DNA of 64,000 bases. Source: Tubiluchus corallicola (Eukaryota > Animalia > Priapulida). Each line of letters opens with the position of its first letter. The first letter of the stretch is position 1. Of the stretch, positions 10,779-64,000 are shown piece by piece. The stretch is taken from NCBI GenBank assembly GCA_030141605.1, contig JAQGDQ010000038.1:682001-746000 (forward strand), written 5' to 3'. The notes below the pieces were generated by a model. The model did not search any database, was not told the origin of the DNA, and saw nothing but the letters and a program-made list of their open reading frames with translations. The position numbers and the translations under genes are program-made.

Positions 10779-11517
10779 CCCTTAGTCGGCCAAGGTGTTT
10801 TTATATTACACTAAAGACCAAGCGGGGGTAAAAATTACTCCATGAAAGTATTGCTTACTATGTATTACTAACTGGATGGAATGAGCAACTGGTAATCGAG
10901 GTGCTCCTATTAGTACAAAGCCAATTCTGCGGCAAGTTGGCATAGATATATGAGGGCACCGAGGACAAAAAGGTTTTCCACTATTGCACTATGTTGTTTA
11001 TGGTATATTATTTATGTTTGGTTTTTCAAGTCTTGTGAAAATTTTTATAATAGCCTAACATGTTCACTGTTTAATTCTAATACATCCACTTAGTCTTCAC
11101 TTGCTGGACCTCATGAAATTTTATCTTCATCAGCTTCATCTACAGCTGTATTTCCACCTATATCACTAAATGAAGAATGAAATTTCATACTATATGAAAT
11201 TTCCTCAACAGATCGTTAGAAAAAACACTCTGCAGAACTGCAGGCTGCAATTGGGAGGTTTGCAGCATATCTCAGTTTTAAAATAAACACATATTGCTGA
11301 CAGAAAGAAAAATACTGCAAAGTAAATTCCAAAATTTTGCCTACGTAAAAGGGGGTAATAAGTTACCCCACATCAGGTAGTATCTATCACCTGTGCTTTG
11401 TAAAAAAGCGTGAATAATCACTATTAGTTTGTATAATTTTTCGTTGTATGCATCAATATAAAAATGTGAGCAAACACTCCTGGGGTAATTTTTTACCCCA
11501 CCTTGGTCGGCTAAGGG
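10779..11517. mobile_element. piggyBac-type non-autonomous element (MITE)
   Basis: Terminal inverted repeats cccttagtcggccaaggt / accttggtcggctaaggg, flanked by TTAA (10775-10778) and TTAC (11518-11521). Subterminal ggggtaa...ttacccc motifs. No transposase ORF. Confidence 0.8.
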
Positions 11518-12828
11518 TTACCAGGCATGAATTGGAACTTACTGGTCCAGGTAGCCTAATTATGTATGAGATTACTGCTAATGACTTAAACATAACAGCA
11601 AGTATTAATAGAAATCAAAAATTTGATTGGAAACTGCAAAGAGGAAGTTGCAACCCATAAAGAGGTGCGGGAGGTACCTCCTGGACAGCCTCCTAACCTA
11701 TACATCGCCACCCTCTCCCCAACATCCCAGGGCCTTCTACCCATTTATATGCATTGCTTTGTCCAGTTCACAAAGAAAGAATTAGCCACTGGAATTGGAG
11801 GATTAACTGACCATGCAGTGAAAATATTCATTTTTTACAAAGGGTCTCATTTTGAAAATCCAAGATGGCCACCAAGCTGTTTTTGAAAAAATGGAAAGAT
11901 AATTTTTAGGTTAAGGCAGATTCTTGGCCTTTCAAAAATGTATAAGATATCTAATCTCTAAAAATTTTGAACGACCTTATGATCACTAGACTATAAACTA
12001 ATTTGTCAAATTCGTTCATTGCTGGCTCAATTCCCTAATAGTTAGCCTGCTACATTTTCCTGATAAGAGAAAACCAAAGGCTTATCTAAGCTATCTATAC
12101 TAAGTAAAAACTCTGTTAAAATGAGAGGTGCAACTACTAAACTTGCTATTCTATTGAGGGAAATATCTAAAAAGGTGATTAAAACCAAGTTAACCAATGG
12201 GTCTTACACTCTCATTGCGTGAGCACACAATCTCATTTCTTCAGAACGTATGTATATCCTGGGGAAGAAAACTTCTCTTTGACCGAGTGGAGTATCGAAA
12301 TCAGCTTCTGATTAAACACACGTGGGCCATGCATGTTTTTAAAAGAGTTAAAAGTACTCTTCAGAACAGATTCTCCAATAAATGCCAGTCATTCACCTCT
12401 TCATTTTACAACACCCGTAATTGATACTAGAGACGAAACGCAGGCTAATATTCCCAATAAATTACCAATTTCTCCCCATCTGTGGAGAAGCCAGCCAGAT
12501 GAATTACATAGCTTTGAAACGGGACAAATTAATTTATAGCCTTCCCAGGCTGCATGCTGTGAGAGACTGGGCTTCTTAAAGACAGAGTTACAAGGATGAT
12601 CAATGCTGCCCACAGTCAATGCAAGAAAAGAAAAACATGTCTGGACATGAATGGTGTGTTAACAGTGTGTGTTTAATGATCAATAATAATTTCCTGAAAT
12701 GCTTCCATGTTGAGACCATTAGATTTAACATTGTAGAAAGTGTATTTTTTAGTTTTCAAGTGCCTGTAAAATCTGAAATAGGATAAGCTGTGTAAATCTT
12801 GTGTATAGGGACAACATGATTTAACTGG

Positions 12829-20480: not shown

Positions 20481-20979
20481 CTAGTAAGTAGTAGATCTTC
20501 TCGACGTAGTTCTAATTTACTTCAATTTTATGTAACTATGTAAAGAAATTTAGAGAACTTTGTAATTCATTATTAACGACAAAGTACGTCTTATTAACTA
20601 TAAACAGATTGTTAATTTAAGTTAGAGTGCAATGAATCGTAAGTAACTCACGCCAACTGTAGATAAGGTATCATCGAATAAAATCGGCATAATTAAACAT
20701 AACATGATAGTCAAATGCTTACCAATCAGACAAAAGCAATGTAACTAAGTAATAAAACGATTCTAGTAAATTTTTGAGCATGAACGTCGCTTTCCATTCT
20801 AGATCATTATATTATAAGAAGCACAAAACCGAAAGCTAAAATCATCACATAGTCCACAAAAAACTTCAGCTACAAAGCTAGTCTTCAACGAAAATAGAAC
20901 CTACTTCGCCCTTTACTACCACTGTGTGTCAGCACTTTACAGGGCGATGTCCATAGATATCTATATTGTTGGGAAACAA

Positions 20980-21990
20980 TGTTGGGAAAACGAACCGGGA
21001 AAAATAAAATGATAATTAATTATATCAATACAATAGGAGGTGAGCTGAAAGTGGGAGATTGCTCAACAGGGGTTACACTAATGCTGTACGAGCTTCTTTC
21101 AGTGAGTGCAGTGCTAAATAGTTCTGAGACATTGTCAAATTTGACAACAACTGACTGGGAGAAATTAGAAATGATTCAAGCAAATGCTTTAAAAACCTTA
21201 TTTAATCTTAGTGAATCAACGCCATACTGGTGATTAGTAACTGAAATAGGCATATGGCCTCTAAAACATAAAGTGAATTATAGGAGATTGATGTTCTATC
21301 GGAATTCACCAATTAGTAAACCAAACAGATTAGCATCAGAGGTACTCGAAATGCAAATAAACAGTTTACATGAAAGGTCATGGTATAATGAAGTAGTTGA
21401 GGCTGCAAAAAATATACCATAGATGCTAATAAAGAAAGGGTGAAGGTCATGAAAAAGTCTGAATGGAAGAAAGAAATAAAGAATAAGATTGGATGTTGTA
21501 TAAAGAGCGAATGTGCAGAAAAATGCAGGAGCAGCACTAAATTAAGATTTTTAAGGCATACCGAGTGGAAACGACAAAATTACATAGACACATGCAAGCC
21601 AGAAGAGGTTAAAGATATATTGAAAATAAGACTGAATATGATTAAAGTTAAGGGGAACTACAAGAATGAGTTTAAGGATCAGTTATTATGCCCAGTGTGT
21701 GAGGAAGATGATGACACTACTGAACATATGCTTAGATGTTACAGATATGGAGAATGGAAAAAAATTTTGAACTCGGAAGTATTAATGAACAGTGAAAAGG
21801 AAGGATTGCTAGAAATTAGAAATCTAGTGAACGAATGTATGGAATACAGGATAAAGACAAATAAAGACATTAAACTTGGAAAAGACAAATAAAAGATCAG
21901 CGTTAAAGAAGAAGAGACTTTGCACCCTATAAAGGTGCCCGCCTCGGATAGGTGGAGAGAGTCGAGTATCGCAATCGTAATCGCAATATA
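20980..21990 (+). mobile_element. 5'-truncated LINE fragment (ORF2 C-terminus plus 3' tail)
   Basis: Broken ORF LN.SETLSNL...LEMIQANALKTLFNL.ESTPYW*...EIGIWP..., continuing into the 150-aa ORF 21440-21892, which has the LINE C-terminal zinc knuckle CPVCEEDDDTTEHMLRC. Ends in a short (atcgca/atcgta)n tail at ~21968-21987. Confidence 0.8.
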
Positions 21991-22784: not shown

Positions 22785-22826
22785 GTTTCTCTGCCTCTTT
22801 GTCTCCATAAGCTGGAGGAGGAAAAC
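22785..22826 (+). promoter_or_regulatory. RPS2 polypyrimidine (TCT/5'TOP) start site and non-coding exon 1
   Basis: tttctctgcctctttgtctcc followed by gaaaac|GTAAGT donor at 22827. It would splice to the acceptor at 24241-24242, two bases before the ATG, a layout typical of ribosomal protein genes. Confidence 0.75.
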
Positions 22827-23026
22827 GTAAGTTGAAAGTCGCTTTTCAAGAATCCTTGTTAATCACTTTTATTTACTTATAAAAACTGCTTTTAATTACA
22901 TATTTGCGTAGCAGACTTGTCTGGTTATTAGTTACCGGTAATATTTATGCGAATTTAGCTTTGTTGACGCTAATTTTAACGAACAAAAATTTTTCAATAT
23001 GAACTTCGCTGTTAGCGACGTGGCAA

Positions 23027-24244: not shown

Positions 24245-27256
<3,012 letters not shown>

Positions 27257-27362
27257 GCAATGAGTTCATTTTTGTGTGGGCAGTGCAATTACTTACATAA
27301 TGTCTGCTTGTCTCATGTTGGCAAAACCTGTTTGGCAATGTACAATGTGTTGTTATTTGCGA

Positions 27363-28430
27363 CATGAATGAGGGAGGGGAGGGATTTGCTGCTTAGAAAG
27401 CTGTTAAGTGGCAGAAAACTGTCGAGTACCCAAAGAGGTCAAAGTGGTCCCTAAAAAGTAAAAAAAGAAGGGTCTTTGACAAAGGGTAAATTCTCGCAAA
27501 GTGACCCCTAAAGAAGGGGCAAAAGTCCAGGGTGGACAAAGATGTCCCAAATGTTGGGGCGCAAGTGAACCCCAGTTGAGGGGAGTCGTCCTGTAAGGAC
27601 ATTGGGCCTTGAGTTGCAGAGGCATTCGTGATCTAAGTGGTAAGATTCTATAAAGCTCTTGATTCCGAGCATTTAATTCACTTGTATATTGCTGAAGTCA
27701 CTTTGCCAATGCTAGACTTGCAGGTGATAAAGTAAACAATTGCACTGCTTTTTTATTATAACTGTGCTATCAAGTGTTTTGTTTCAGGTGTTGTGTGTAA
27801 AAACGCAAAAATGTTAAATTTAAAAGAAACTGGTAAAAAACAATTGTTAAGATAAGAAGCCTAAGAAATAAGAAGGCTGAGAAAAATAGTTGTATAAATG
27901 ATGTTATGGTGAAAGAAAGTGCAGAGCAGAAGTGATAAAATATATAGAAATAGGGAATGTTGTAAAAAAAATGTTGAAAACTAGGAATAACAAGCACAGA
28001 AAACAAGAAAATCCAAAAAAAGTTGAATTTGTAAAAAAGTGGCAGAACAGTGCCGTTGATGTATGCAACTTTGTTGCAAAAATGTTGTGAGAACACAACT
28101 ACCGTAAAACAAGTGTAACTATTGTTACAAAATCGTGTTGAAGGTTACATAGCAATCCTGGGCTACAAGAACCGTTTCGGGAACATCTCCCCAACTGATG
28201 TTCTGTAGCCCCTCCCTGTACTAGATGTACGGGAATGTCTACAGGTGCGATGTTATGTAGCTCACATTCGTTGCGACGGGCTGACGGTGCCCTAGCAATC
28301 TCGGGCCACAAGCGCCAATTCGGGGATGTCTCCCCAATGATAATCCTGTGCCAGAAACATGGGCAGGAGTCGTGTCTTCGGTGTACGTGGCGAGTGCAAC
28401 ACTCGCCCGTATAATCAATGCTGCGAAAAA
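27363..28430 (+). ncRNA. Putative long structured non-coding RNA or structured 3' extension downstream of RPS2 (family unknown)
   Basis: Two GC-richer domains (27363-27630, 28134-28425) consist almost entirely of nested inverted repeats with + strand G-U pairs. They are linked by an A-rich tract with small hairpins. No credible ORF. Confidence 0.55.
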
Positions 28431-30086
28431 AGGAAAATTGCAAAAAAAGTATTGTAACTAAGCTATTTAACGAGATGGTCACACTGTTAATGAATACTTG
28501 GATTGTCATCTTTCAGTAGTTAACAGTCTTGTAAGCTGCTAAATAATAAAAGTGTCCATCCAGTCTCCATCGTGTTCAAGTTTTTCTATTGTTATTGTGA
28601 TCTTTTTGTTGAGACAAGTCGAAGATTTCTCTTCACTGTGCAGAAAAATGCAATGTGTTGCAGTATTGTAACCATATAAACCACTCATCTGCTCTGTCAA
28701 AGTGTCTGTAAGATGAGATAACTGAACCATGGTGCTGTTACTCTGAATGAAACATTGGTGTTGCTGAATACTGCTAGAATTTTTCATTAGCCTAATTGGT
28801 GTCCAAGAGAGATTCCGGTTGTAATAACAAAAACATTTTTACAAAATTAATTGGTAGTACAGTATACTGCTATCATCAGTGTTGCTAAGATTATTTTTGG
28901 CCTAACAAAAACTAGTGTCCAGATTTAACAGTCAAAATATTTTTACGAAATATGTGCTTGCATGCATCACAGTTCTTGACAAATTATTAATGTTACAATC
29001 AAATTTAGGGTGTTTCTAGACGTGCGAAATGACTTAGTTCTGGATGATGCTTATACAAGCTAGCTTATGGTCGGCGGCAACAACTAACAAAAATAATGTT
29101 GAATTTCACATTTCCTTATTCTTCCGCCCCGACGTTCTTTCTTCCTAGGGCTTTGAGTTTATCTACTAATTATGTGCAGTTGGCTTTAAAATGCTGGCAC
29201 TCTTCAAGTGGAGATAGGAGCCAAACTGTAAAAGTCAGGTCAACTGTCTGGGTGAAATTGTCAAGGGCAGTGGAACAGTTTGCATCACCTCTAGCCTTTT
29301 TGTGTATAATTCATGTGTTACAAGTATTTGGGTATAATAGGGTTAGACGTAGACGTTGTTTTAAACAGCTTAACGTTTTTCAATGTGTAAAATGGGATTT
29401 GATTTTGTCGTATCAGGGTTAATATAAACAAGGAAAGGTAAGGTGTGTTCCAAAAAAAACGTGACATTTGGACATCAATAAAATTTCATGTTGTGTCTAA
29501 TTTTTTATTTTCGTTTATAAAACTTAACGAATCATTAATTTTGGTAATTTACAGTATTTTTTAAGATTCATCACTTTACTAAATTAAATTGATCAATTTC
29601 TTATTTTTCAGTATTTCGTGTACGTGTAGTTTCTAAATGAACGAAGCAGAAGACAGTTTAGATCAGCATTTTATTAAAATATGACTGAACTTTGATTCAA
29701 AAATATCTAGCCTATCATAAAAACGGGTACAGTAATAAAAAATCTATGCACACCAAAACAGCTAGTGCATCATTCATTACAGCATTTTGCGAGTAGCGGA
29801 ATGCTCCATGTAAAGCAAGTTAAGCCATAGGAAATTTTGGCACTCACCATAGGTTGTTATGAGTCGCTGGTTGTAAAAAGTTTTATGACAGTTATCAAAC
29901 CTCTGGCTTTAGCACACCTTTGATTTTCCCAACGTGACAATATACAGATGGACGAACGTCGATAAACAGCGAAGCTCTACCTCCTGATCCAGGCACTCAG
30001 CACTCCTGCAGTTGCTCTATTATATCAAAAGCTACTTGCAGACAGACGTGGAGAATGATTTGAAATACATAAAGCAAGAGAAAACC

Positions 30087-30470: not shown

Positions 30471-30963
30471 GACAATATGAGCTGAGCGAACCCTTTTCCG
30501 ATTAATAAAGACCCTATTTGTTTTTCAATAATTGGCTTCATTTTTTGTTTGAATTTTTATGCTGATAGATACAAGAGACTGTACGTAGTACTTTTCAGCG
30601 TCAGTGTTTGTTAAGATTGAACTTCCAGTATTTAACAGATTCATCTTCATGAACTTTATCTTGGGGTATTTAATTGTTGTTTGAACCCACACTGCGTACA
30701 TAAGTCTTAGACTGATTACGCACACGTTTAATTTATACCAAGGCACTGCGAATTAATTCTATTGCGCATGTAATTAAAAAGCATTATTTCACAACAAATT
30801 TAAATATATGGGGATTGATATTAAAATACTATGAACGCCCAGCATTTTGGTCGTAGGATTATTATAGGAACGCCTAATTTTGCGCGCATATTTTTGAGTG
30901 AAATGAGTCCTTTTGCGTCATTTGGCTTACCGTGTAATCCGTGTAAATATATAACAGTGACAG

Positions 30964-31116
30964 CCTAGGCAGCACGACAAAATTGTGGACTTGCCATAAT
31001 ATTGTACCTATATTTTTTCCATAATTATTGCGATGTTTTGACAATATGGAAAAAATACATGTATTGCCAAAAAGTATTGGTAAAATATTATGGCAATATT
31101 TTTCGAGTTGCCTAGG
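30964..31116. mobile_element. ~150-bp palindromic (foldback) MITE
   Basis: cctaggcagcacga...ttgccataatattgtacc is mirrored by ggtaaaatattatggcaa...tcgagttgcctagg. Confidence 0.7.
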
Positions 31117-31949
31117 AAATTTTCTGAAATAATTGCTACAAAACGTGCATGCGCCACGTATTTGTGTTTGTTTTTCCAGTTTGCCTGCATAGATTTTATA
31201 TTGTAGCCACCACATATTTGTGGACGTACTGGGCCACGCGTTTCCCTTAACACAACAAACTTTAGTTACATCAAATTTAGCAGCTTGATAGCAGGATGAG
31301 CGATTAAGCATAAATTAGTACATTTGGTGTACTAACCAAATACATGTAATGGTGTTCAAGCTAAATGTATCTAAAGTTAGCATGAGTGTGTATATAAGTT
31401 GCATAAATCAAACTGAAATTGCCCCTCATCTCGTTTGAACTGCTGCGCTAATGATTACTGGGTTAGGCATTGCCAGTCTTTGATTAAGAGATTTATACAA
31501 GTTTACTAAAAAGTAATCAGAGCATTCGTGTTGGTAACACACTCGTAACTAGCTGTAAGCAAAGATATAAATTACTTCATCTTGTCAAAAAAGCAGCTAT
31601 GGGACGGCTGCCCTGAACCAGCCTTGACTTGAGCTAGGCCACGTAGGCCTGAGACATTGTTACATTACTCGATCACGCAAGACCTTTCTGTGTTGAGCTT
31701 CAAATCACACTGCTTATAGTTAAACTTCTACAGGCCTTGTCGTCCATTGCCTGATTAGTGGTACCTCACAACTTTTAATTTAAATCGCAAAGTTTTTTTA
31801 GGAAATGACTGTTGCTTTCGTGGCACAATCGTTTAATTAAAACACCAAACTATAACTCACGATAGTCAGTTAGCGCATGTAAAAACAATGCGCAAACCTT
31901 GCATTTCCCAAGAAACAGCGCTCACTGAATATGGTACTTAAAAGTGAAT

Positions 31950-33926: not shown

Positions 33927-34428
33927 TTTTATGCGTAATACTATGTAAATAGTTTCGTAAGTCGTTGAATAAATTTATTTACTTACTATTGTTTTAATAT
34001 ACCCTTTTATCAGTCCTACATTATTGATATAGGATGATATAGACCCTAGAAATCTAGAAAAACTAATCGCTCTCTGTATCTATCAGTTTTTTAGGGTGCG
34101 AAGTAGGCCACTAACCAGTGTAGGGCAGTTGCGCTAAAGCGTATGCATAAAATTTTGTGGAAAACCAGTGCTATACATGAGCAGCCTAAGTAGCCCACTG
34201 GTGATTTCTTTCACTCTTTTAACTTTACGTTGAGAATTATGTCAAATTTTTAAAAATTCTGTGCATGTTTCTTCATATTGAATAAAAATTGGGCTTGTTG
34301 GCTGAGTTGCCATCAGTTTGGTATTGTGAAAACTTGCTTAGACAAGTGTTTAATTCACGCCAGCATGCAGTACATGAAAATGAATGCAGTGCGATATACA
34401 GTGACTTCTTTTTCTATAGGTACAAACT

Positions 34429-34726
34429 ATGGCTGGATATGTAAATCGCTCTTTGTCTCTTGTTGATGCGCAGACTTTGAGCAAACCAAGCAACGGATCA
34501 TATGAGAAACGGAAAATGGCCGAAGAGACACAGGAAGTGGCAACGTCGCCTTTAAAGATATTTGTGAAAGCAAAGAAGAAAATAAATGATATATTCCATG
34601 AGATAGAAATATATACCGGAGAAAGTGCAAAATTCTTAGAAGGTACCCTATGTATTATATGTACATATCTATGTATGTGTTTGTATCTATATGTATATCT
34701 ATATTTATATGTATCTATATATACAT

Positions 34727-34766
<40 letters not shown>

Positions 34767-37700
34767 GTGTGTGTTTAACAAAACAACAAGAAATTATGTA
34801 AATTTTGACACGACTAGGTTTATATAAAAGGAGACTATTTCGGGTTTGGTGATGGGATGTCCTTAAGTAATGGCCTATTCGCAGCTTCGATTATTTGTTA
34901 TTATTCGTATTGTAAAATACTATTTAATTATCCCATGCCACCTGCTCACTTATAGATTCTTTAAACTTTTCAGTAAGCCAACATCATTGTCCCATTATAA
35001 CCAGTCTGCCATCATTGCTGCCGTATAGCAGGAAAACAATCATTCCACTATCAGCTCACTGCCCTGGATAATAAAACTAATTCACTAGTAAGTCGGGTAT
35101 GTCCATGTGGCATCAAGGAGCTCAGAACTTTGTGTGGGAACATTTTGATAAAGCTCATTGAAACACTGCAAAATGTTCGTTATGAAAAAGCTAATTATCA
35201 AAAAGCAACATGCTATATGTTAAATTCCATACAGTTAATTTTCAAACCAAACATGCTGTAATAGTGCAGTAATAACATTACAATTCAGTCTAGACAAGAG
35301 CATGGGTGCAGGTACATGTATGTTTCCAGAGCAACAGGGGTCAAGACTCAACCCGCTCAACAATTGCGTGGGTGTGCGTAAATTTATCATTCCAACTCTA
35401 CAACTAACATATACAGTGATGTAATAACTGCTGCACTGTATTTCTGTTTCTACGTGTTGTTTCCACATTATCTGTTTCCACATGCTGAGCATGGAAGGAA
35501 AATATCCCAAGGTCAAATATTCGATTAATAAATTATTTGAAATTCCCTGGGCACTCTTAGCTTCGAGAGAATAAGCAGAAAAAATAATTGCTACTAGTCT
35601 GGTATGCTAATTTAGTCAGTACATTGTTTTTTTAAATTAGCAAGCTTTTGTCAATGCTGCTCTTATGTTAAAATGATCTGTTAACTCATGCTGTTTCCTG
35701 TTTCTTGCTGCTCATTTAGAAATTGAAGCTCAAGGTAAGAGGATCAGTGTTAGAGAACGTAATTTTATTATTAGCTATAACAATATGACTTATTACAATA
35801 TTACAAGCCTTTATTAGACTAATATACTTATGTTTTATTAAATTATGTACTTTTCATTGATGTGTATTTATAGTTCTTTTGCGATATTCCAACATTTTTC
35901 AGGCCATTTAAAAAGTAGATGTTGCAGCTTTCTGTCATAGTGTAATATCATATGGTTCTGAAATTCTGAGACTTCTCATATACAGCTGACCAAATTCGTT
36001 CAAGTTGAACAATTCATATAATGCTTTGCAGTATACAACTCTTAAAGAGTTCAACAAAAGAGCTGTTAGAGCTCTTTTTTATGTTTGCGTACATGTAGAC
36101 ATGTGGCTTCTTTCAAGGTGTACAAGATGCTAGAATTGTAACAGAGGACGAAAACACTGTAGTGAAGAATTTTCTCCAAAAAATAAATGGAATCACAGAA
36201 GTGATTGGAAGAAAGCAGATGAAAGTAGCCTTTTTTGGACGGTAAATGTTTGTTTTTTCAACGTAATAGTCACTGAGTAGTTTAGAAAAACATTGCAAAT
36301 TAAGGTGGATTTTTGCAGGATTTACTTTTTTGAAAAATGAACATACATAACATACACATGACATTAATAGTTTTGTCTGGGACCAACTAATAGCTCAAAT
36401 AAAATAGCTGTTACTAATGCCAGATGTCTCCAAAATTTATTTTAAAATTAGTAATATCTTTGTGTACTGTGTAGTTAGAATATAGCTATTTTGTGCTATG
36501 GTTGGTAATAGTAAGAGTCACTTATTGATGTTGAGGCTTCCTAAATCAAGCAACGATAAGAAAATATTTGGTAAATTAGAAATTGATTCTCAAGGTAAGA
36601 AAATCATTGTTAGAAAACTTTGTAGTATTCCATAATTAGCTATACCAGTAATCAGTATGACTTTTTACGTTATTGCAACAAAATTGTGGTTTTGTAATAA
36701 TGTCACATGCTAGGTGGCACAAACACCAAGGAAACCGTATAAGACATTGTTTTACTTCCACATTTGTGGTAGCCCAACATAATAATTTTATAAAGTTTAG
36801 AATTATTATAAAAATATTTTCAAGGACGCTGCAACTAAGACATGAGCCACTGATAAATGTTGTTAATATTTCCCATATTTTTTTCTAGGACCAGTAATGG
36901 CAAAAGTACGGTTGTTAATGCAATGCTAAAAGAGAAACTGCTACCCAGTGGAATCGGACACACCACAAATTGTTTTCTACAAGTAGAGGGGTCTGATGGG
37001 GGTGAGGCATATCTACTCATAGGGGACAGTGAGGAAAGGCAACCGGTAGAGGTGAGAACATTTAATAATATACGTGCGTAATCGGTAAAGTTACATTCGC
37101 TGTTTATGTGCGTTACGGCACAGTTACATGATTGATACAAATTCTACTAATTCTACAGAAATTATTAGAAGCAGTGGATACCTTGTGTGAAATTGATTTT
37201 TTGAGCCGATTTTCTGTTTTATTCGTTTACCACAAATTGAACATCACACCCGAAATATGAAATTGGTTGTTGTTATTTGGTGTAGGTGGTGGGATGGGGT
37301 TTTGTATTTTATTTTCATTGCTCTTCTGTGAATCTGGCTGGCAACTCTCATGGGTTAGAATTAAGATTTTATGACTTATGAAGCTTAACTGCACCAAATA
37401 CCACATTTTAAGTGCCAGTCATTGCAATTTGCTATTCAGACTGTTTTGTTATGTTAGCTGTGTTTTGTTATAATTTTTGTCTATAATTTGTTTTGTTATC
37501 TGTGATTATAAAAATGTTTATTATAAATTTTTGCTCAAATCTCTTGACTCGGTGTAGAGCAAAGAGCCTTTGAAAATGGTTGAAACATTTTTCTGGTAAC
37601 GCTTTCAATTTCTTTAAGCAAACGGAAAGTTGAAGGTGTGCTTTCTTGTGAATGCTCCGAAAACTGGTTTGCACACCCCGAGGCTGTTAATGATAGCATT

Positions 37701-40700
37701 TTGATCTTGGCAGATCATGTTTTGTGACTACTAATTTTAACTCTTGTATGGGTCACATTAACCATAATTCTTTTGCATTTCTTATCTGCGCACATTCATG
37801 ACTTGATAAGTTTGTAATTTAGAATCAGTATGTATACAGAGTGGCCCTCAAATGTGCACTGCAACATGAGTTTCGTGATACACATGGCTTAATAGAACTC
37901 ACATATTTTATGAAGTGTACAAGCCATTCTTAATGTGGCAGTCTGTCAGTAACAAACTCGTTTAAAACTACAGCACTTGGTAAAGGTGTCAGTCACTTTG
38001 ATCTTTGATCTTTTAATGGAAAAAGCAATGTATTTCCAGGCATTGCCGATCCCTGTGTAAAATTTACGCGCGCGCGCACACATGCACGCACACACACACA
38101 CACACACACACAATATCATATTGAAGAGTGAGTTAGCCACTTGAGCTCTTCCTTGTACTGTTTTAAAATAACGCCTATTAAAACACTATGTTCTCTTTAC
38201 GAAATATCGTAATTTTTATAACATAAGGTGCTTTTGTTGATCGTGTTTGTACATCATCTGTGTAAGCTCTCATAACTCCTGTTATGTGTCTTCTTGTACT
38301 GCTGTGCTTGCTCTTATCATTCCTGTGTTGCGTGTTAATAATCTTAAATATGCTTTTTTGTAATTATGCATGCTATCCTCATGTTATTTGTCGTTTCACA
38401 AATGTTCTTAATAAATATCCTTATTATCACAGCTGTTGCTGATTTTGGAGAATGCTTTGTTTATGATCTATTTTAAATTATTATTTTTTGGTCATTTGTG
38501 CATGTTTTGGATTTACTAAAATTTGTAATCAGATTTTACGTGGCCTATCTTTCATTTATAATTACAGTCTGTTGGTCACCTTGCACATGCTCTACACACA
38601 TCAGAAATGGGTGGCCAGGGTTTGGTGAAAATACGCTGGCCCAAAGAAAGTTGCGCCTTACTCAAAGATGATGTGATTCTTGTGGACAGGTAAGTAGCTG
38701 GCACTTTTGAAGTCAGAGATCTTTCTGTGTTCAGATAAATTACACCAAACATCACTGTAGAGACAAGCATTTAATTAATTTTTATTTCGAAACATTTTGA
38801 ACCAGAATGCCCATGTTTCTGGCTCCAGATTAGTCAAAATAAAAGATTAACCAAGTTAGTTAAAATTGCCCTAGTGTGAGCAACATATCACTGGAATGTT
38901 GAATTTGGTTGGCTAGTTGTTAGGGATGAACTTTGGACTGCGTTGACCATTCGGAAATGCAGTAGCCAAGTGGTTAAGTCATTTGCACCATTTGCAGAAG
39001 GTCCCTAGTTCAAATCCAGGCTGCTGCATCCTGGTTTTTTTCACATTTCTTTGAAGTTTGTTATCAAAATTTAATTCCGTATAGGAATGTAATAATATCT
39101 TGATATTACGATTATAACAATTAATTTACACTAAGTTTGAGTTTTGGTACATCTTATATTTCAACTCTTTAATATATTGCTTTGTTTATAGCCCTGGAAT
39201 TGATGTGTCTCCAAACTTGGACAAATGGATTGATGAGCATTGCTTAGATGCTGATGTTTTTATTCTTGTAGCCAATGCAGAGTCAACACTTATGCAAACG
39301 GTAATTTACTTTGAGTAAACAACTATTGAAAGCACAATTTTAGAAAGTTTTTATTAACTCTCAAGAATTTGCATGCAGTGTCATTTTAATTTGGAGAAGT
39401 AGTCTTAAAGGTCGAATATCAAAGTAAAAACTTAAATTTAACACTAATTTTATTAAATTTTGTGGCTTGCTTCCTGGTGAAATCGTGGGTCAAAGTTGCA
39501 TTTCCCCCCCAAAACGTTTTGTTCGGTTTTCTCGTGAAACTTCGGAAAATCGCAGATTAAACAAAGGTGCTAGCAACGGCTTCCTTTGGTAAAGCGTCTT
39601 TTCGGTGACACCTGGATTTGTAAACAATGCTACGCAGTGAAATGGGACACATGGGAAGCAAATGCAAATGCTCCCACAACTGAGGACTGAGATTTCGGTG
39701 GCATCACCTAACATGTAAAATGCATGTATCAGAAGTTCTTAGTTAGAACATTTTATTTCTGTAAAGTTCACCATGAAAGTGCAAGTTTTAGTGCAACGTC
39801 TTTCTTGTATTAATGAGAGTGCAGTGGCAGTTTACTTTGCCATAATTAATTATATATGTAATTCGATGGAATAGAACCATGTTAAGTATTTTTTAATCAA
39901 AACTTGACCAAAGGGAAGAACATACAAAAAAGTCGGGACTCAGCGTCAATTTAAAACAGGTCTTTTCTAATCCAATATTCGTCTTATAATTTACTTTGTC
40001 GTGTTACAGGAGAAGAATTTCTTTCATAAAGTTAGTGAAAGGCTTTCAAAACCAAATATCTTCATTCTCAACAATCGCTGGGACGCTTCAGCTTCTGAAC
40101 CGGAAATGATGGGAAAGGTAATAAACTGTCACGTGTTATAATACGTAGTAGATTGTTTCCTCTTAATTATTAGTTGTTTGGACGGTAAATGACAAATCCA
40201 TTAAATGAGTCCTTGACGCTAATTTTGATAAACAATGTTATATTAATTACATTGGCAGAATTTTTAACCAATTACACTGCATCTCTTGTACTAGTTATCT
40301 TTCTGTGAAATTGATTTTATTTTTGTCCTTGAGCTGGAAAACAACTTACACTCTGTAATGTAATGTTGCTTACATGGTGTTACCTTAATGACTTTTTTCA
40401 GTATTCTACAGCTTTGTTTTACAGCAACACCAGTTATTTCAAAATTTTAATTTGAATTTCATATGCGAAAGTAGGTTGTAATAATCACATACTTATGCTC
40501 AACAATATTAAGATTACTTGCAAATGCGTCTTCTGAAGTGGCTTTAATTATTATGGATATTTACTCAGAAATTCTGATGCCAGTTCAAATTATGAATTGT
40601 TAAGCATTAGAGTAATACATTTGTGTTATTTTTTTAAATTGAAATAGTAAGTCTAGGTCAACCATGCTTTTGAAAACTCATTTCAAATGACATGAAATTA

Positions 40701-43700
40701 GTTTAATTTAATTTGATTTTTTGTTTTGGCTATATCGATAATATTCTATTTTCAGACTCCTTAGCAAAAATCCTAGCAAATTTGTGTACAAGCCAGCCCC
40801 AAGTGGTAACTGTCACATTTTTTTCTTTGATAGCCCTTTTTTGCTGATGCTTTTTATTCAGGTGCGGCAGCAACATTTAGACAGGAACTCTTGTTTTCTG
40901 GTTGACGAGTTAAAGGTTGTGAATAAACAGCAAGTAGAAGATAGAATATTCTTCATTTCTGCAAAGGAAGCTCTCTTTGCGAGGTTAAAACAGAAACAGG
41001 GGAGCCCTCCTCAGTCGGCTGCATTAGGGGAAGGTTTCAATCAACGTATGGTGGAGTTCCAAAATTTTGAACGTAAATTTGAGGTGATTATAATATTTTT
41101 GCTTTTGACATCTACAAAAGTCATTGTAAGTGCGTAGCGGTATTAATTATAAGTAAATTAGCTATGCTGGAGGGGGGATGGTGGCACTGATCATAATGAT
41201 ACTCAGTAATATATATTAAAAAGATTTAGAAATTATATTGAAAAAAAGAGGCTTTTAGACTAGTGCCAAAATATTCTTTATGTCTAATTGTCTTGCATTA
41301 ACTTTTACTTTTACTATTAAAAATGTTTAAAAATTTCCTGCAACTGTATCTAAATTGGAATTTTATTTCTGCACAATCATATAGAATGTGTAGAATATAG
41401 GACTACGTCACTTGCTTTACAAGAATTTTTGCTTATTCCAGCTTTATGAGCACAAATTCTACTGTGTCGAGTCTCTTGCTATTAGTCTTCTATCCCCTAG
41501 AGCATTTTAAAAGTACTGGTTGTCAAGTGGTGTAGTATTTTGTCTTTTTTTAAACTGCTGGATGGTACAACTAGAACATTTCTATCAATTAATTTTCTGT
41601 AGAAGAAATGGAATAAAACCGTTTAAGGACTGCCTTTTCATGTTTCCTTACAAAATGGTTGTAAAATGTTTTTTTACATGTAGGAATGTTTGTCAAAATC
41701 AGCTGTGAAGACTAAATTTGAACAGCATACTGAGCGAGCGAAGACCATCTCTGTGGAACTGAAGACTATCTTAGACGAAATTCTTCTCAGAGCTTTGAAA
41801 TGCAGGTAGCTGCATTTGTTTGTGTCTGCATTTTATTCAAATCTCTACTTTGAACTTTTCTTAACTGGTTGCATCTTTCCAAGCATTCAAATTAGAGGTT
41901 GAAGCTGTGCAATCAACTAGTTATGGGCAGAAATTCTTGGCAGCAGGATGAGAGTGGTGGTGGTTCAATTTCATTTTTAGTTTGTCACACTTTTTCACTA
42001 TCTATCAAAGATCACTATCAAGGATGTCTTCTAAAATGAGACAATGAACTGGCAGAAGTGCCAGCATTACATTACTGTTGGGGAATTTTTACAGCTCACT
42101 CAATGACATAAGTAGCAGGGGTAGTATGGTTGGTGAAACTGCTTAGAAGCAGTTTTCCTAATAATAACACGTTCATTTACTAAGCAGGCTCAGTATTGTT
42201 TAACTTCTTTCGCTAAGTGCCACTGTGACCACTCAGTTATAACTCTCATACTGAATAGAAGAAGTGATTGTCTACTTGAAGTTCATACATCAGTAGTCCT
42301 GGTTAAATTGCAAAAGCAACTACTTTTTTGACCCTTTGTACATTTCTTACCAAAATGTGCTGCACTATAGTTTGCATTAGAATTCAACTTCTATTTCTCA
42401 TTTTTTGAACTGTGAAAGCATATATAAAATACATAGAAATGAAATCCATTGCAATTTACTTATTTTTTTGAACCTGATATAGGGCATTAATGAAAGTATT
42501 ATATTTATGTATTTCAAAACCAAAACTGCATAGAAATGTTTGAATTCATTGTTAACTTCAACCCATTAATTAACCTTGCATAAAAGTATATAGCAATTAT
42601 ATTTTTATCATCACTTGGCTTGATTAGAAATATTCAAACGGTTCCTGTGCTTTCAGACAAGAACGCGAGAAGCTGAGACATGAGCAGGCCGATCAATTAG
42701 ATTTTGTAGAAAAACATCTTAAGTTACAGACAATAGAAATGAAGGAGTTGATAAATCGCATGGTGGAGGAAGTTGAAATCAAGGTGAATTTATATAATCC
42801 AGTATATGTGCTTCATGAATTTAATTCATATACTGTATATAATGTTAATTTGCTTTTACTCTTTCTCATTTGGTGTATTTTGTTCTTGTGTTATCAGTAT
42901 ATTGTGAAAAATTGTGGAACCAACAACATGTGCATATTTTTCACCTATCTATTCCCTGAGAAGCAACATACTCGCTGTAGTGATGTTAGCAGTTTGATTG
43001 AAATTAACTAGATGACGCTGTGTTTGCAGGTATCTGCTGCATTGAACGAGGAAATCAAACGTCTTTCATTGATTATTGATGAGTTCGATCGACCATTTCA
43101 CCCTGATTCGCTTGTGCTAAATGTTTACAAGAAAGAACTACATTCTCATGTTGAAAACGGTCTAGGACGTAACTTGCAGGCCAGATGTAACACTGCACTC
43201 ATGAACTGCATTGAACGTACAGAGAATACTATGAAAGGTTGCATAAATTATTTATCAATTATTTATTTGTTCTGTAGTATGTAAGTTAGTGTGTAGAATG
43301 CACACTACACTTGTCATTTTTAAGTAAAAAAGTGGATTGCTGTTCATAGTCAAATAGTAAATGTTCGACTTGACATAATGAAACTCGTCATAATAAATAA
43401 GCTTTCTTTTAAATGCACTGCTTTAATTGGCATAATTAATAAAGTGAACGTCTTAATAATTATGTTCACAATTTAAAAGAACAATATAAACTGCTTTTTT
43501 ATCCTGTAATGTAACCTAATTGTCACGTAGGACAGTTTCGTCATTTTACAATAATGTAGTATTCTAGTTTTTGTAGCTGCTTAGATTAGATCATTATTTC
43601 AATGTAAAGCAAACATTGCCTTTAAAATGTTTTGGGATGTAAATAATATTCGTTACTTAGGTACTAACTTTTTAGCCATTGTACTGTGGGCTTTGAACTA

Positions 43701-46700
43701 CCCTATCAGACAGGTTTGTTAAACTAGCTAGGAAGTATTGCTTTAGTTGCAAAAATATGTTGTCTTTTGTAGAAAGGATCTCTCATCTTTTGCCTCAAGA
43801 GATGAAAGCGCAAGCTAGTCAAATTGTGGCCAGACGGGAGTTCGGTATTCAGTACAACCTGGACTGCCGTAATTTATGCGCTGAGTTTCAGGAGGACATT
43901 GAGTTCCGTTTCTCATTAGGCATAATGACGTTAATGCGCCGGTTCCTAGGTTATTCAAAGACAAGATCAACTCTTCTTGGTTTTGCTGACAGAGTATGTT
44001 TGCTAACTATTTTAATTTCTTAATTTCATTTTAAGTTTTTACTCCGTTGAAACCATTTTGTATGTTGTTTTAGGTTTTTCTCATTGGTTAAATTTTTAAT
44101 TTATTTATGAGTAATTTTTGATCATAAAGTTATGTGACTTCAAAATCGTGCAAACTGTTTTGTGCTTAGTTTAGTGCAGGGCAAACCAGTCTAATGCAAA
44201 GGCTTGCTCTTTTTAAACTGTAAAATGTAAAGAGCCAAACTTCCCCACTTTTAAAATAACTGCATTCACTTATTGTAAACTTGATAAAATAAAGCAGTTT
44301 TTCTTCTTTCTTATAATATAAGCTTATTAACTTCTCAGCTTATTATGTTTTTACATAAATATAAACTCTTATAATCGTTTGACAATAATTAATCTCGGAT
44401 AAAATTTTACGTAATATTCAATCTTGCAGCTGTCCTTGATGCTTACCATGACTTTTGCTTTCAGATACCCGGATCTGTTCCTGCCACACCGTCTACCCCT
44501 AGCAACGAACAGCCTTTCCCTGTTGCTAAGGAAGAAGATTTAGTCCTCAGCATGTTTACTAATGTTGCTGCAATCGGTAGTCGATCTGTTGTGGTTGGTT
44601 TCATTTTAACGGGAATGGTACGTGTGATTGACAATTTTTTGTTCATAAATGTTTTGCTAAGTGGATTTAGATGTCTAATCTAGCATCTCCTTAGCTGACA
44701 GTACTTTTCTATTTTTAGGTGAAATTTTCATCAAACTAGCTTATCTGGTTCTGCACAATTCATGTATTTTTGTGGAATTTCAATTTTGTTCTGCTTGTAG
44801 TTATTGAAAAACTAGCTTTTTTCGTTAAGGATAAAAAGTTGCTTTTGCCTTGAGTACCACATGGCTTTCGTGCCCTGAATGGTAGAAGAAAGTTCATTTT
44901 GTCAACCGAGTTATTTTTAATTTATGATGAAATGTTTCCCGTTTTCACTTATTCAGACTTGTCATCATTCAAAATTTAAAATTTAGATGCATTCTAATAA
45001 TAATGTTATTGGTTAGAAAGTAAAAACATTAAAAGTTAAAACAGTTAGTGATAATTCTTTGTTTCAGTTTTGGAGAGCAGTTGGGTGGCGTATAATAGCC
45101 ATCGGTGGCACGGTATATGGATTAGTTTATCTTTATGAGCGGTTGACTTGGACAAACAAAGCTAAAGAAAGAAGCTTCAAGCAACAATATAATGACTATG
45201 CCTCAAGAAAGTTAAGGCTGATTGTTGATCTGACTAGTTCAAATTGCAGCCACCAGGTGCAGCAGTAAGTGCTCTAATTGTTTAATGCATGTACAGTATA
45301 GTTAACATTAACATTTAGAGTGCATGTGTATAAATTAGATTACCAAATTTGTGTTATGTAGGCCAGCAAACTGCATGCCAGTAATCCAGCACTCAGTTGG
45401 AAGACCTGCTTAATATATTGTTGAATGTGACAGAACTGGAACCAAGCATAATCCTTTAAGATGAGAAACTAGCTTGAGTGCCTTAGCCATATTCAACTGT
45501 ATATATATTTTTCCTCAACAAAAGAAATTGCTGGGGCAGATAAAGCATAACAGAGGTAGTGCTGCTGAATTTACGAACCAGGTCTAGTGACTACTACACC
45601 TTTTTGCAGAACATTGCATACGACCCATGTGGTGCACAGGGAATCAAACTGAAATTCATGGGTTGAGAACCAAGCGAAACTGAATGTAAAGATTTGCATC
45701 TGACAGTGATTTGATTTATCTGACAAAATATTTTAATGCAGTCTAATGGTTGAAGTAAACACACTGAAACTGTATTGGGACTGAACTGTGAGGAGAACCG
45801 TAATCACTTACAAAATGAAAATGAGCCTTGTGCAGGCCTATATTGCATTGATCTTTGCATTCTACAATTCAGATTGTCAAAAATTTGTCAAAATATGTTA
45901 TCCTCTTTAGTACCGTTTGTTGTCTTGTAGTATAAGGTCAGTCCTCTTACCCCGAGAGACATTTATGATCTCTAGCCTGCTATGGATTTCATCTTTTTCA
46001 TCACTTTTTTAATCATAGTAGACTGCAGACTTAGCCAGCTAGTCTACATAGCTTGCTACATTTCTGTAAGTAGTGGAAACTATTTTAGTATTTAAAGTAT
46101 AAAATTTTATATTTTCTTAGTTGTTGATAGTTTCTAAACATGTGCTTGCATACCGCTGTGTACTGTACTTGTAAAAGCTGTGCAAATAGATTTGTGAACT
46201 GAAAACGTCTAAAAAAATATAACTGTGCAATCGAGCAACTGTGGAAGCTTGAGTATGTAGTCTTACATCTTTGTACTTCATACACGCTTACCTCTCATTT
46301 TGTTGAAGAATACATTAGTGATCATTTTTTTAACTTGTGTTATGTGCCTTCCTGTGTGCATTTTTTAAGAAGAACATGTGCTAATAGTGTTTGCTGTCTC
46401 ACAGGGAATTAAGTTCAACATTTAGTCGCCTCTGTCACCTGGTGGATCAGACGAAAATCGATTTGCAAGAAGAAATATCTGGAATTGATCGTGATATCAA
46501 TAAACTCGAACAAGTGGCTACAAAAGCTAAAGTACTTCGGTAAGTCTACAGTTTTCAGCAAAACAATTTTAACAGCATTATGATGGGCTAATAGTTACAT
46601 GATTCTAAAACTTGGATTAGTGGTTATGTGCAAAACATTCCTTGTCATTTTATTGGTGTGTTGACTTTATAAATTAAAGATTTGTTCCAATATTAGTTTG

Positions 46701-50584: not shown

Positions 50585-52506
50585 TTTCAGCGTGCTGTTG
50601 TTTCCTGTTTCTTCTTTCACAGTTGGTAAGTTCACAGTTGAATTGCAAAAGATACCCAACACATTTCTTTTGTAGTTGAATAATAATAAGTTTTAGTGTG
50701 CTGCTTCAAAGTGATAATACTAGTACAAATGTTTCTGGAGGAGCTGGACTTGCAGTCAGTCCATATTATACATTGCTGCAGGACAGTACGTACACCTAGT
50801 AGTTAATACCTAGCATTGTATATTGAAATGGCTAATAGCTGGAGTATATTTTTTATTGCTTGACAGCATATGGATAATTACTATATGTACGATGTAAGAA
50901 GATAAAAAAACTTTTTGTTGCTTGAGTTGCACCACAAAAGCATTTGGTGAAGTAAATTTGTCAATGAAATTTTGCAGGCAACTGGAGATGGAAGGCAGGT
51001 GAACAAGGCTCAGGCAAGTGAGGAATGTAAAGGAACTATGGAGTATGGCGAATGGAAACAGGAACACGAATGTACTGCTTCTTGTGAAGTTGGGCCGAGA
51101 ATACAAGTGAGCATTTATTGTACTTGACAAATCAGGTCAACATGCTAATTAATTTTCGCACAGAGAAATTTTGCGAATACGTGCATTTAATGCCAGACAA
51201 AACTAATTGTGTGTGTTTTGTACAAATCTGTTTTATTTATACTACAGTATGTTAAATTTTGAACTTGAAATATGTAAAGCCAGCCTTTTCTAACTAAATT
51301 AGATACAATGACAGTAACAAGTTGCCTTTGGGTTTCCACACAAACTGGGGTTCATGGTTGCCACCTGACGTGAAGTGTTTTCAAGAGCTCTACCTTTATA
51401 TTAAATGCAAGGTACCCAATTGTTCAACTGATACTCCAAACAAACGGATATCTTCTATATTTATACTTGATTATCGAATAGTGCATAATCTTAAATTATT
51501 GTACTAGAAAACTGCTTTGGTTTCCCCCTACCAGGTGTTCACAAAATAATTTAGAAAAAGCCATTTCAAATGCTGTTGCTATACATGTATTTTACAATTT
51601 AATGAACTGGATGTAGTATAACTTTTTGTCATGACTGTCATGTTAGCTAGGCTTTATCTCTTGCAGACGTTCACAAGGAAAGCTTATTGCAAAGACAAAA
51701 AAGGAACATACACAGAGTTTACCAAACAGAAAAGATGCACAAGAGATCAATTAGAAAAAGAATATTATGTGAGCTCTCAATTAGAATGGATGAATGAAGC
51801 ACCTTTCAGTTCCAGAAATGATGACAGTGAATATGACACCGACGAGGAAGAAAGTCAAGACAACAGTACAGGAACTGACACAGAAAATGATGGTAAGCAT
51901 TCACGACACACATCACTAAGACGAAAAAAGAAAAAGAAGAGAAGGAAACGTGTCGATTACTGTAATATGAAAATTGTTATATGCAACGATGATTCAGACT
52001 GCAATGAATCGCCAACCATGGATGCAAATACAATCACAACTGCAGGAACCACGGTGACTGAAACAACTGCAGATCAAATTTTGACAACCCAAAGTCGAAG
52101 AACGGAGCATCTACGAACTACAACCACCACTACTAAAGGTACAACTATGGCTAATACGTCGGAAACTACCGAGGAACCAACAACAAAACGCCGACGTAGG
52201 CTGCGACCACGAACTACAACTACCACAACTGAAGGCAGAACATCAGCAACTACAACAGAAACAGTACAAACTGTAGAGAAAGAAACAACAACATCAACAA
52301 GACGAAGACAAACACAAACACAAACAAAATACCCAAGAACTACAACTACCACAAATGAAGGTACAACAGTTATATCAGAATCTGTAGAAGCTACTGAGGA
52401 ACCAACTGCATTATCTACTGCCAAAGGTACAACTACACCAATAGGGACAATCACTGCAAACAAACTGGAGGCTGTTGCATTTGTGGGAACTACTTATGAC
52501 AAGTAA
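50585..52506 (+). CDS. Putative secreted protein with a TSP1-like Cys module, acidic and polybasic tracts, and a Thr-rich mucin-like tail (start exon unresolved)
   Basis: In-phase exons 50585-50625 (.SACCCFLFLLSQL, signal-peptide-like), 50978-51106 (ATGDG...CKGTMEYGEWKQEHECTASCEVGPRIQ) and 51668-52506 (TFTRKAYC...RRKKKKKRRKR...TTTTT repeats, TAA). AATAAA at 52629. Confidence 0.65.
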
Positions 52507-63754: not shown

Positions 63755-64000
63755 CTGAAATTAAATAAAACAGGTGTAAATTACATGCAATTTACTTGAA
63801 GGTTTTCTAAATGTAATTTTGATTTTTATGACAGTTACATTTATGGATCTTCTTTTACACATTTGTAAAGTTACCTAAAGCTTAATATTTGTTTCATGGG
63901 TGCAGCTGAAATGGTTTCATTAATAGAGATCGATTTATTAACAAATTGTTACTGAAACAGGCCTGTTGTAGTATACGAATCAGAATAAAAATAACTTAAA

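What the first reader, a model, noticed from the sequence alone, without database searches (positions are those of the whole stretch)
27363..27630. Unrecognised multi-hairpin RNA domain ~105 nt downstream of the RPS2 stop
Seen: an outer stem catgaatg/cattcgtg encloses a G-run tract (gggaggggaggg) and seven helices. These are tgctgctta/taagtggca; a long arm cgag-taccc-gtcaaag-ccct / aggg-ctttgac-gggta-ctcg; cccct/agggg; gtcc/ggac; cccaa/ttggg; cccc/gggg; gtcct/aggac; plus gcct/aggc. Linkers are A-rich, and an aagtg(a/g)..ccc motif precedes three helices. G-U pairs work only on the + strand. Inference: selected RNA structure, not a DNA palindrome. It lacks the landmarks I know for RNase P/MRP, SRP, 7SK, hammerhead/HDV ribozymes and telomerase templates.
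Basis: partly seen in the sequence, partly recalled or inferred. Interest (0 to 1): 0.8.

Follow-up and report, generated by a model that had tools for sequence, protein, structure and literature searches.

The report
Tree-shaped RNA in RPS2 messenger tail
In an invertebrate outside the arthropods, the messenger RNA for ribosomal protein RPS2 runs on past its stop codon into a likely 1.3-kb tail, where about 560 bases are predicted to fold into a long stalk topped by eight hairpins, likely a protein-docking platform that would control this messenger's fate.

Summary
The listed helices exist and the 268 nt fold better than shuffles (z -3.3), with no Rfam family. The boundaries and two helices need correcting. 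With its flanks, the region is predicted to be the eight-hairpin head of a ~560-nt tree (27261-27822) whose ~100-bp stalk starts 5 nt after the RPS2 stop (z -4.7). Spliced RNA contigs from two studies run from RPS2 coding exons into the head, so it lies in the RPS2 3' UTR, likely ~1.3 kb long (other RPS2 loci: median 86 nt to the first poly(A) hexamer). It is single-copy. Differences in two relatives mostly fit the revised fold, but the data are thin and many partner bases were not visible. An A-rich linker and a second folded domain follow. Best reading: a cis-acting protein-docking 3' UTR platform working like yeast RPS28B's, function untested (0.45). Rivals: a hitch-hiking non-coding RNA, or a decayed fold-back insertion. 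No homolog was found in 80 other RPS2 loci. The scan had not noted this on other DNA.

The parts
27084..27256 (+). RPS2 (uS5) last exon, coding part; stop TAA 27254-27256
   Evidence: Relatives are named 40S ribosomal protein S2/uS5; spliced joints into this exon in X5 and X6
27261..27397 (+). 5' arm of the predicted irregular stalk, beginning 5 nt after the stop; includes the G-rich tract 27370-27383, which faces an internal loop
   Evidence: Most helices with pair probability 0.76-1.0, G-tract pairs only 0.42-0.69; 100 stalk pairs in the centroid: 53 AU, 29 GC, 18 GU
27385..27397 (+). 5' strand of the 13-bp helix that closes the head (partner 27632-27644)
27409..27424 (+).
   Evidence: Probability 0.90; in X5 two G-U pairs become Watson-Crick and a double change adds a pair, one loop-closing pair is lost (hand reading)
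27427..27488 (+). Head hairpin 2: long three-helix arm with an A-rich loop
   Evidence: Probabilities 0.92-0.97; base of the arm diverged in X5 and X6, partners not visible
27505..27623 (+). Head hairpins 3-8 (27505-27519, 27525-27537, 27543-27561, 27570-27583, 27588-27600, 27606-27623): short C-rich/G-rich stems behind AAAG-type linkers, looking like degenerate tandem units
   Evidence: Probabilities 0.64, 0.92, 0.48, 0.83, 0.94, 0.95; units listed; 27543 (X6) and 27610 (X5) change U-G to C-G
27632..27822 (+). 3' arm of the stalk, with a side branch 27751-27802
27823..28100 (+). A-rich, weakly folded linker
   Evidence: 48% A; mean unpaired probability 0.56 against 0.39-0.45 in the flanking parts
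28101..28460 (+). Second folded domain with an internal 61-nt duplicate (28139-28199 / 28282-28341, 75% alike); holds 28209-28217, the exact complement of the G-tract 27371-27379
   Evidence: z -4.72, 0 of 100 shuffles for 28130-28430; duplicate; complement
28545..28550 (+). AATAAA, likely poly(A) signal of the long 3' UTR
   Evidence: Only AATAAA (and no ATTAAA) in 27257-29100; RNA contig cover of X5 and X6 stops in the bin 28425-28641 while DNA runs go on (weak hint, one X6 contig has a 211-letter loose end at 28595)

Best explanation
The element lies in RNA contigs continuous with spliced RPS2 coding exons and is predicted to be the eight-hairpin head of a ~560-nt stalk-and-head fold at the start of a likely 1.3-kb 3' UTR, where it likely acts in cis as a protein-docking platform that would set the stability or translation of RPS2 mRNA. 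Shown: position after the stop, continuity with spliced RPS2 RNA in two studies, single copy, no known family. Predicted: the fold. Inferred: the stalk loops out 560 nt so that the A-rich linker, and any poly(A)-binding protein on it, would sit next to the stop codon and spare the long UTR from nonsense-mediated decay; the head's repeated linker-hairpin units would bind several copies of one factor (free uS5, its chaperone PDCD2/ZNF277, or a decay factor), giving feedback control in the manner of yeast RPS28B. No partner was identified.
For: One 869-nt X6 contig is spliced across two RPS2 introns and continues to 27400, then 27499-27583; one 853-nt X5 contig runs 27170-28020, and X5's RPS2 contig is spliced at four introns. 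DNA run X2 has flat depth 12.4-13.7 over 26472-29292. 27257-27830: -184.6 kcal/mol, z -4.74, 0 of 100 shuffles; lowest composition-corrected energy of 442 tile-strands, residual z -3.83, next -2.69 (tiling was anchored on this start). Of 35 listed substitutions 21 are unpaired and 6 keep a pair in the centroid; hairpin 1 is rebuilt by four changes in X5. G-U outnumbers A-C 20 to 7 in a strand-neutral alignment of the arms, p 0.0096 against 50:50. Other RPS2 loci have short tails: first A(A/T)TAAA at a median 86 nt in 36 of the 39 loci with at least 574 nt of flank, out of 80 (many are close kin). Precedents: RPS28B 643-nt 3' UTR with an Edc3-binding stem-loop (PMC8062979, passages; PMC6884704, passages); PABPC1 near the stop or a folded-back tail suppresses NMD (PMC5118804, passages); how PDCD2 is recruited to nascent uS5 is open and affinity for uS5 mRNA is suggested (PMC10216425, passages).
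Against: No binding or functional data. 8 of the 35 substitutions would break a centroid pair if the partner is unchanged; 2 are real losses of loop-closing pairs, 1 is kept in the hairpin-1 extension, and 5 have partners that were cut from the table or unaligned. The middle of the head is under 80% alike in X5 (27466-27552) and 27401-27498 in X6. Stem-versus-loop test on hairpins 6-8: 1 of 13 against 6 of 21, p 0.15. G-U excess is not significant against arm composition, p 0.27. The minus strand folds with the same z. Three other places in the window have a higher strict stalk score (59, 58, 56 against 54). Contigs do not prove one molecule, an end or a level. No homolog in 80 RPS2 loci, so it is not a general RPS2 feature.
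Confidence: 0.45

Rival explanations
1. A hitch-hiking non-coding RNA: the head (or head plus second domain) is cut out of the RPS2 transcript and works in trans, using a highly expressed host gene as intronic snoRNAs do.
For: Multi-branched, GC-stem/A-linker head on a long bulged duplex that could be a nuclease substrate. RPS2 here also hosts a C/D snoRNA-like intron sequence. Precedents: telomerase RNA cut from an mRNA 3' UTR in Ustilago (PMC9564094, abstract); intronic RNase P RNA in insects and crustaceans (PMC4287351, PMC6797745, search listing). Summed contig depth in X6 climbs from 276 at 27123-27339 to 167,042 at 28425-28641. A 9-nt complement links the G-tract to the second domain.
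Against: No Rfam match to RNase P/MRP, SRP, 7SK, telomerase, snRNA or ribozyme models. No template longer than one repeat for TTAGGG or TTAGG. Contigs run unbroken from coding exon into the head. The X6 depth rises steadily to the AATAAA and is lowest over the head, as a 3'-biased library of one mRNA would give (inference; contig depth is not a level). A 9-nt match between two regions of this size is expected about once by chance (hand estimate).
Confidence: 0.2
2. A decayed fold-back insertion (MITE-like or viroid-like element) landed behind the stop codon and lengthened the UTR; the structure is a tolerated relic with little or no function.
For: The arms are 87 Watson-Crick matches in 133 aligned columns, as old terminal inverted repeats would be; both strands fold equally well by z; the head looks like degenerate tandem units; part of the head diverges fast; lineage-restricted.
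Against: Single copy: no second contig at 80% likeness in DNA runs X2 and X3 over the element, whereas a repeat in RPS2 intron 3 reaches depth 2046 in X2; no second copy in the window. G-U over A-C 20:7, not expected from symmetric DNA decay (p 0.0096). Wobble-to-Watson-Crick swaps at 27303, 27340, 27367, 27422, 27424, 27543, 27610. No hammerhead core.
Confidence: 0.2
3. The first reader's smaller fold (outer stem 27363-27370/27623-27630 plus hairpin 27387-27413) is the working form or a co-transcriptional alternative, making the element a two-state switch.
For: 27387-27395 can pair with 27405-27413 or with 27634-27642, which share seven bases; the small fold has probability 0.94-0.96 when the RNA ends at 27630.
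Against: 8.4 kcal/mol worse in context; X5 breaks a central pair of that hairpin while improving the competing hairpin 1.
Confidence: 0.08
4. A splicing-and-decay switch: the closing helix hides a 5' splice site at 27640, and opening it would remove a 3' UTR intron (acceptors at 27723 or 27788) and send the mRNA to nonsense-mediated decay, as other ribosomal protein genes autoregulate.
For: Donor-like site at 27639/27640 inside the closing helix and pyrimidine-rich AG sites downstream; splicing autoregulation of ribosomal protein genes is common (PMC6884704, passages).
Against: X5 (27553-28020) and X6 (27660-27940) contigs are unspliced here and no such joint is among the 15 of 65 shown; an X6 loose end differs at the -1 and +5 donor positions (hand reading).
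Confidence: 0.07

Closest known systems
Saccharomyces cerevisiae RPS28B 3' UTR (Edc3-binding stem-loop; PMC8062979 and PMC6884704, passages read)
   Same: A small-subunit ribosomal protein mRNA with an unusually long 3' UTR that carries a structured element.
   Different: Different gene, kingdom and sequence; here a predicted ~560-nt multi-hairpin tree plus a second domain rather than one stem-loop; no partner or regulation shown. Works-like candidate only, not a homolog.
Ustilago maydis telomerase RNA from the emi1 mRNA 3' UTR (PMC9564094, abstract read)
   Same: A large structured RNA of about 1.3 kb in the 3' UTR of a protein-coding mRNA.
   Different: No TTAGGG/TTAGG template, no Rfam match, no sign of release from the mRNA.
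Pol II-hosted RNase P RNA of insects and crustaceans (PMC4287351, PMC6797745, search listing only)
   Same: Multi-hairpin RNA of similar head size inside a housekeeping Pol II transcript.
   Different: Exonic 3' UTR rather than intron; no match to RNase P or MRP models even at E up to 10.
Drosophila bicoid 3' UTR localisation element and branched viroids such as PLMVd (both recalled, not read)
   Same: Overall shape: long irregular duplex with a branched head.
   Different: Shape only; no sequence match, no hammerhead core, no Rfam hit.

Membership tests
RPS28B-type autoregulatory 3' UTR element | Lies in a long 3' UTR of a ribosomal protein mRNA | tested here: met
   Spliced contigs run from RPS2 exons into and through it; the 3' end near 28570 is a weak hint
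RPS28B-type autoregulatory 3' UTR element | Structure conserved by covariation | tested here: inconclusive
   Two relatives, partial tables; consistent swaps but p 0.15 and five partners unseen
RPS28B-type autoregulatory 3' UTR element | Binds a protein and changes mRNA decay or complex assembly | not testable with these tools
   Needs binding and reporter assays
RNase P / MRP RNA | Match to the covariance models with the P4 pseudoknot core | tested here: not met
   No hit at gathering score or at E up to 10
Telomerase RNA | Template of more than one telomere repeat | tested here: not met
   None for TTAGGG or TTAGG; one 9-nt TTAGGC-type match at 27857 lies outside the domain; the host's repeat is unknown (repeat units recalled)
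H/ACA or C/D sno/scaRNA | Boxes in the standard layout and a family match | tested here: not met
   No box C or box D in the head; only Pab19 at 20.1 bits against 55, E 1.8-6.1
Hammerhead, HDV, twister ribozymes; retrozyme or viroid-like | Catalytic core | tested here: not met
   No Rfam hit; no hammerhead core motif on either strand of 27257-27830
MITE / fold-back transposon | Many genomic copies | tested here: not met
   Single-copy depth and no second contig at 80% likeness in X2, X3; copies under 80% not testable, no genome held
MITE / fold-back transposon | Terminal inverted repeats | tested here: inconclusive
   Arms 87 of 133 columns Watson-Crick, with G-U excess
SRP, 7SK, vault, Y, spliceosomal snRNA | Family covariance-model match | tested here: not met

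The most novel reading that the evidence does not exclude
The 1.3-kb tail is a new kind of large structured RNA that an animal lineage makes from its RPS2 mRNA: two folded domains joined by a G-tract/C-tract long-range pairing, with the eight-hairpin head released from the stalk to work in trans as a multi-valent RNP scaffold or ribozyme.
Probability: 0.15. Interest if true: 0.85.

Novelty: new variant of a known kind. Interest (0 to 1): 0.46.

Why it matters
Ribosomal protein mRNAs usually have very short tails (median 86 nt to the first poly(A) hexamer in the RPS2 loci checked). A 1.3-kb tail with a 560-nt ordered tree starting at the stop codon would be an animal counterpart, much larger, of the yeast RPS28B element. 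It offers a concrete test of an open question, whether the uS5 chaperone PDCD2 or free uS5 is recruited through uS5 mRNA (PMC10216425), and a natural case of a fold-back that could protect a long UTR from nonsense-mediated decay. If it is instead a released RNA, it is a new RNA family. Its narrow distribution so far limits the general weight.

Tried and rejected
No whole genome is held, so diverged copies elsewhere in the host could not be sought. The run search listed no holder on record as RNA; X5 and X6 were judged RNA from their spliced joints. Exact-pattern scans found nothing: viral contigs three patterns, genome contigs one; blastn against phages none. blastn and nhmmer of the tail against 80 RPS2 loci gave only three 18-30-nt A/T-rich matches at E 0.23-0.82 and no nhmmer hit. 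A permissive stalk score did not discriminate (141 for the element, 95th percentile 137) and was replaced by a strict one. The steep X6 depth near 28500 first suggested a separate abundant RNA; set aside as likely 3' bias, and contig depth is not a level. Stop-codon read-through: the 36-codon extension is broken by a stop and deletions in X5 (hand reading). Three-tier G-quadruplex: only three runs of three or more G. A-to-I editing: no clear A>G excess (X5 21 A>G against 19 T>C; X6 25 against 15, with G>A 27), but single A>G differences could be editing. The careful tree did not finish; the quick tree was used. Paper searches that found no description of this element; one search returned 0 papers; subscription journals are mostly not in the library and no supplements were read. 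Look-ups of earlier findings by sequence, place and words found nothing on it.

Full report
Observation. The twelve strand pairs named in the finding are all present in register, and the AAGTG(A/G)..CCC motif occurs three times in the element and once elsewhere in the window. The stop of RPS2 is at 27254-27256 (gene identity). The 268 nt fold at -85.6 kcal/mol, z -3.30, with 1 of 200 shuffles as good; the minus strand gives z -2.74, 2 of 200, so energy alone hardly tells the strand. Among 238 tiles of 268 nt the overlapping tile ranks fourth by raw energy. Rfam gives nothing at gathering score in the whole window and only sub-threshold chance-level matches at E up to 10.

The element is larger than reported. 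Folding 27257-27830 gives a tree: an irregular stalk between 27261-27397 and 27632-27822 (100 pairs in the centroid: 53 AU, 29 GC, 18 GU), closed at the top by a 13-bp helix 27385-27397/27632-27644 (probability 0.89), and a head of eight hairpins. Energy -184.6 kcal/mol, z -4.74, 0 of 100 shuffles; minus strand -140.2, z -4.66. It has the lowest composition-corrected energy of 442 tile-strands (residual z -3.83, next -2.69), though the tiling was anchored on this start; on a strict stalk score it is the fourth-best place in the window (54, 99th percentile 38). Downstream lie an A-rich linker (27823-28100, 48% A), a second folded domain (28130-28430, z -4.72) with an internal duplicate, and the only AATAAA within 1.8 kb of the stop, at 28545.

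It is transcribed as part of RPS2 RNA. No genome is held, but six public runs were listed and four laid. X5 has an RPS2 contig spliced at four introns and no cover of the unique upstream and intron-2 DNA; a second, 853-nt contig runs from 27170 in the last exon to 28020. X6 has one 869-nt contig spliced across two introns that continues into the head (27083-27400, 27499-27583). Both differ from the window by about 4-5% in coding exons (X5: 29 of 640 letters), so they are relatives and serve as a small comparative set. Cover in both stops in the bin 28425-28641 while DNA runs go on; this is a weak hint of the 3' end, and one X6 contig has a 211-letter loose end at 28595. Contigs cannot prove a single molecule or a level. 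DNA run X2 has flat depth 12.4-13.7 across the element and tail, against up to 2046 over a repeat in intron 3, so the element is single-copy at 80% likeness (X2 is the same sample as the possible source of the window; X3, another sample, shows one 1072-nt contig with no differences).

Comparative evidence. Tables were cut (40 of 277 rows; differences within about 30 letters of a piece's end are not listed). Of 35 listed substitutions, 21 are unpaired in the centroid, 6 keep a pair and 8 would break one if the partner is unchanged. Of those 8, 27424 keeps a pair in the hairpin-1 extension, 27419 and 27592 are real losses of loop-closing pairs, and five have partners not shown. Selection on the fold is therefore likely but not shown.

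Distribution. A quick tree of a neighbouring MYCBP2 exon (27 rows chosen from 120 listed) places the host outside arthropods and outside spiralians plus deuterostomes, best identity 57%; no priapulid row was included, but earlier notes on this genome suggest a priapulid (not independent). None of 80 RPS2 loci from metagenomes (80 kept of 176) shares the tail. In the 39 with at least 574 nt of flank, 36 have a poly(A) hexamer, median 86 nt after the stop, 29 within 225 nt (many are close kin and some are not animals). Pattern and blast searches of viral, prokaryote and phage collections were empty.

Mechanism. Shown: location in RNA continuous with spliced RPS2 exons, single copy, no family. 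Predicted: the tree. Inferred: a cis-acting platform. The stalk begins 5 nt after the stop and ends at the A-rich linker, so it would bring a possible poly(A)-binding-protein site next to the terminating ribosome, the arrangement that suppresses nonsense-mediated decay of long UTRs (PMC5118804, passages). The head repeats one unit, an AAAG-type linker before a short C-rich/G-rich stem, as a multi-copy protein-binding array would. The nearest working model is yeast RPS28B, whose 643-nt UTR binds Edc3 through a stem-loop for decay and co-translational complex assembly (PMC8062979, passages; PMC6884704, passages). For uS5 the candidate ligands are free uS5, PDCD2 and ZNF277, whose co-translational recruitment is unexplained (PMC10216425, passages). 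I put 0.45 on this reading, about 0.9 on the 3' UTR location alone. Rivals: a released non-coding RNA (0.2; precedents PMC9564094, abstract, and PMC4287351/PMC6797745, listing; but no template, core or model match), a decayed fold-back insertion (0.2), the small fold as a switch state (0.08), a splicing-NMD switch (0.07).

Novelty. No Rfam family, no homolog found, and no description in searches (empty; library incomplete, no supplements read). It fails the membership tests for RNase P/MRP, telomerase RNA, sno/scaRNA, small ribozymes and multi-copy MITEs. It works, if anything, like a known kind (structured cis element in a long ribosomal-protein 3' UTR) but in a much larger form and in an animal: a new variant of a known kind. 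Interest 0.46: real, unusual and testable, but lineage-restricted, with thin covariation and no function shown.

Noticed in passing
window 26645-26729 (+), RPS2 intron: Likely box C/D snoRNA: terminal stem, box C-like and box D motifs, and a 10-nt guide shared with snoR77Y; 23.5 bits against gathering 52, E 0.027.
   Followed up: partly
window 28101-28460 (+): Second folded domain of the same tail (z -4.72) with a 61-nt internal duplicate and the exact 9-nt complement of the G-tract; no Rfam hit.
   Followed up: partly
window 22786-22833 (+): Pyrimidine-rich start followed by a consensus splice donor: likely the non-coding, TOP-like first exon of RPS2; not covered by the stretch laid.
   Followed up: no
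window 25632-26279: Multi-copy repeat in RPS2 intron 3 (depth up to 2046 in X2, many loose ends).
   Followed up: no
window 20898-21892 (+): Broken frames that look like the C-terminal part of a non-LTR retrotransposon protein (resemblance recalled).
   Followed up: no
window 34420-44700 (+) and 53800-63760 (-): Neighbouring genes: mitofusin-like exons (recalled resemblance) and MYCBP2/highwire with very large exons. A Thr-rich mucin-like frame lies at 51622-52506.
   Followed up: partly
window about 11185-11760, 30700-31350, 34400-35000, 56650-57300: Other places with long self-complementarity or low fold energy; not examined.
   Followed up: no
run X5, loose end at window 27651: A second X5 contig carries a more diverged version of the 3' end of the head (134 loose letters), so X5 holds two alleles or paralogues.
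   Followed up: no
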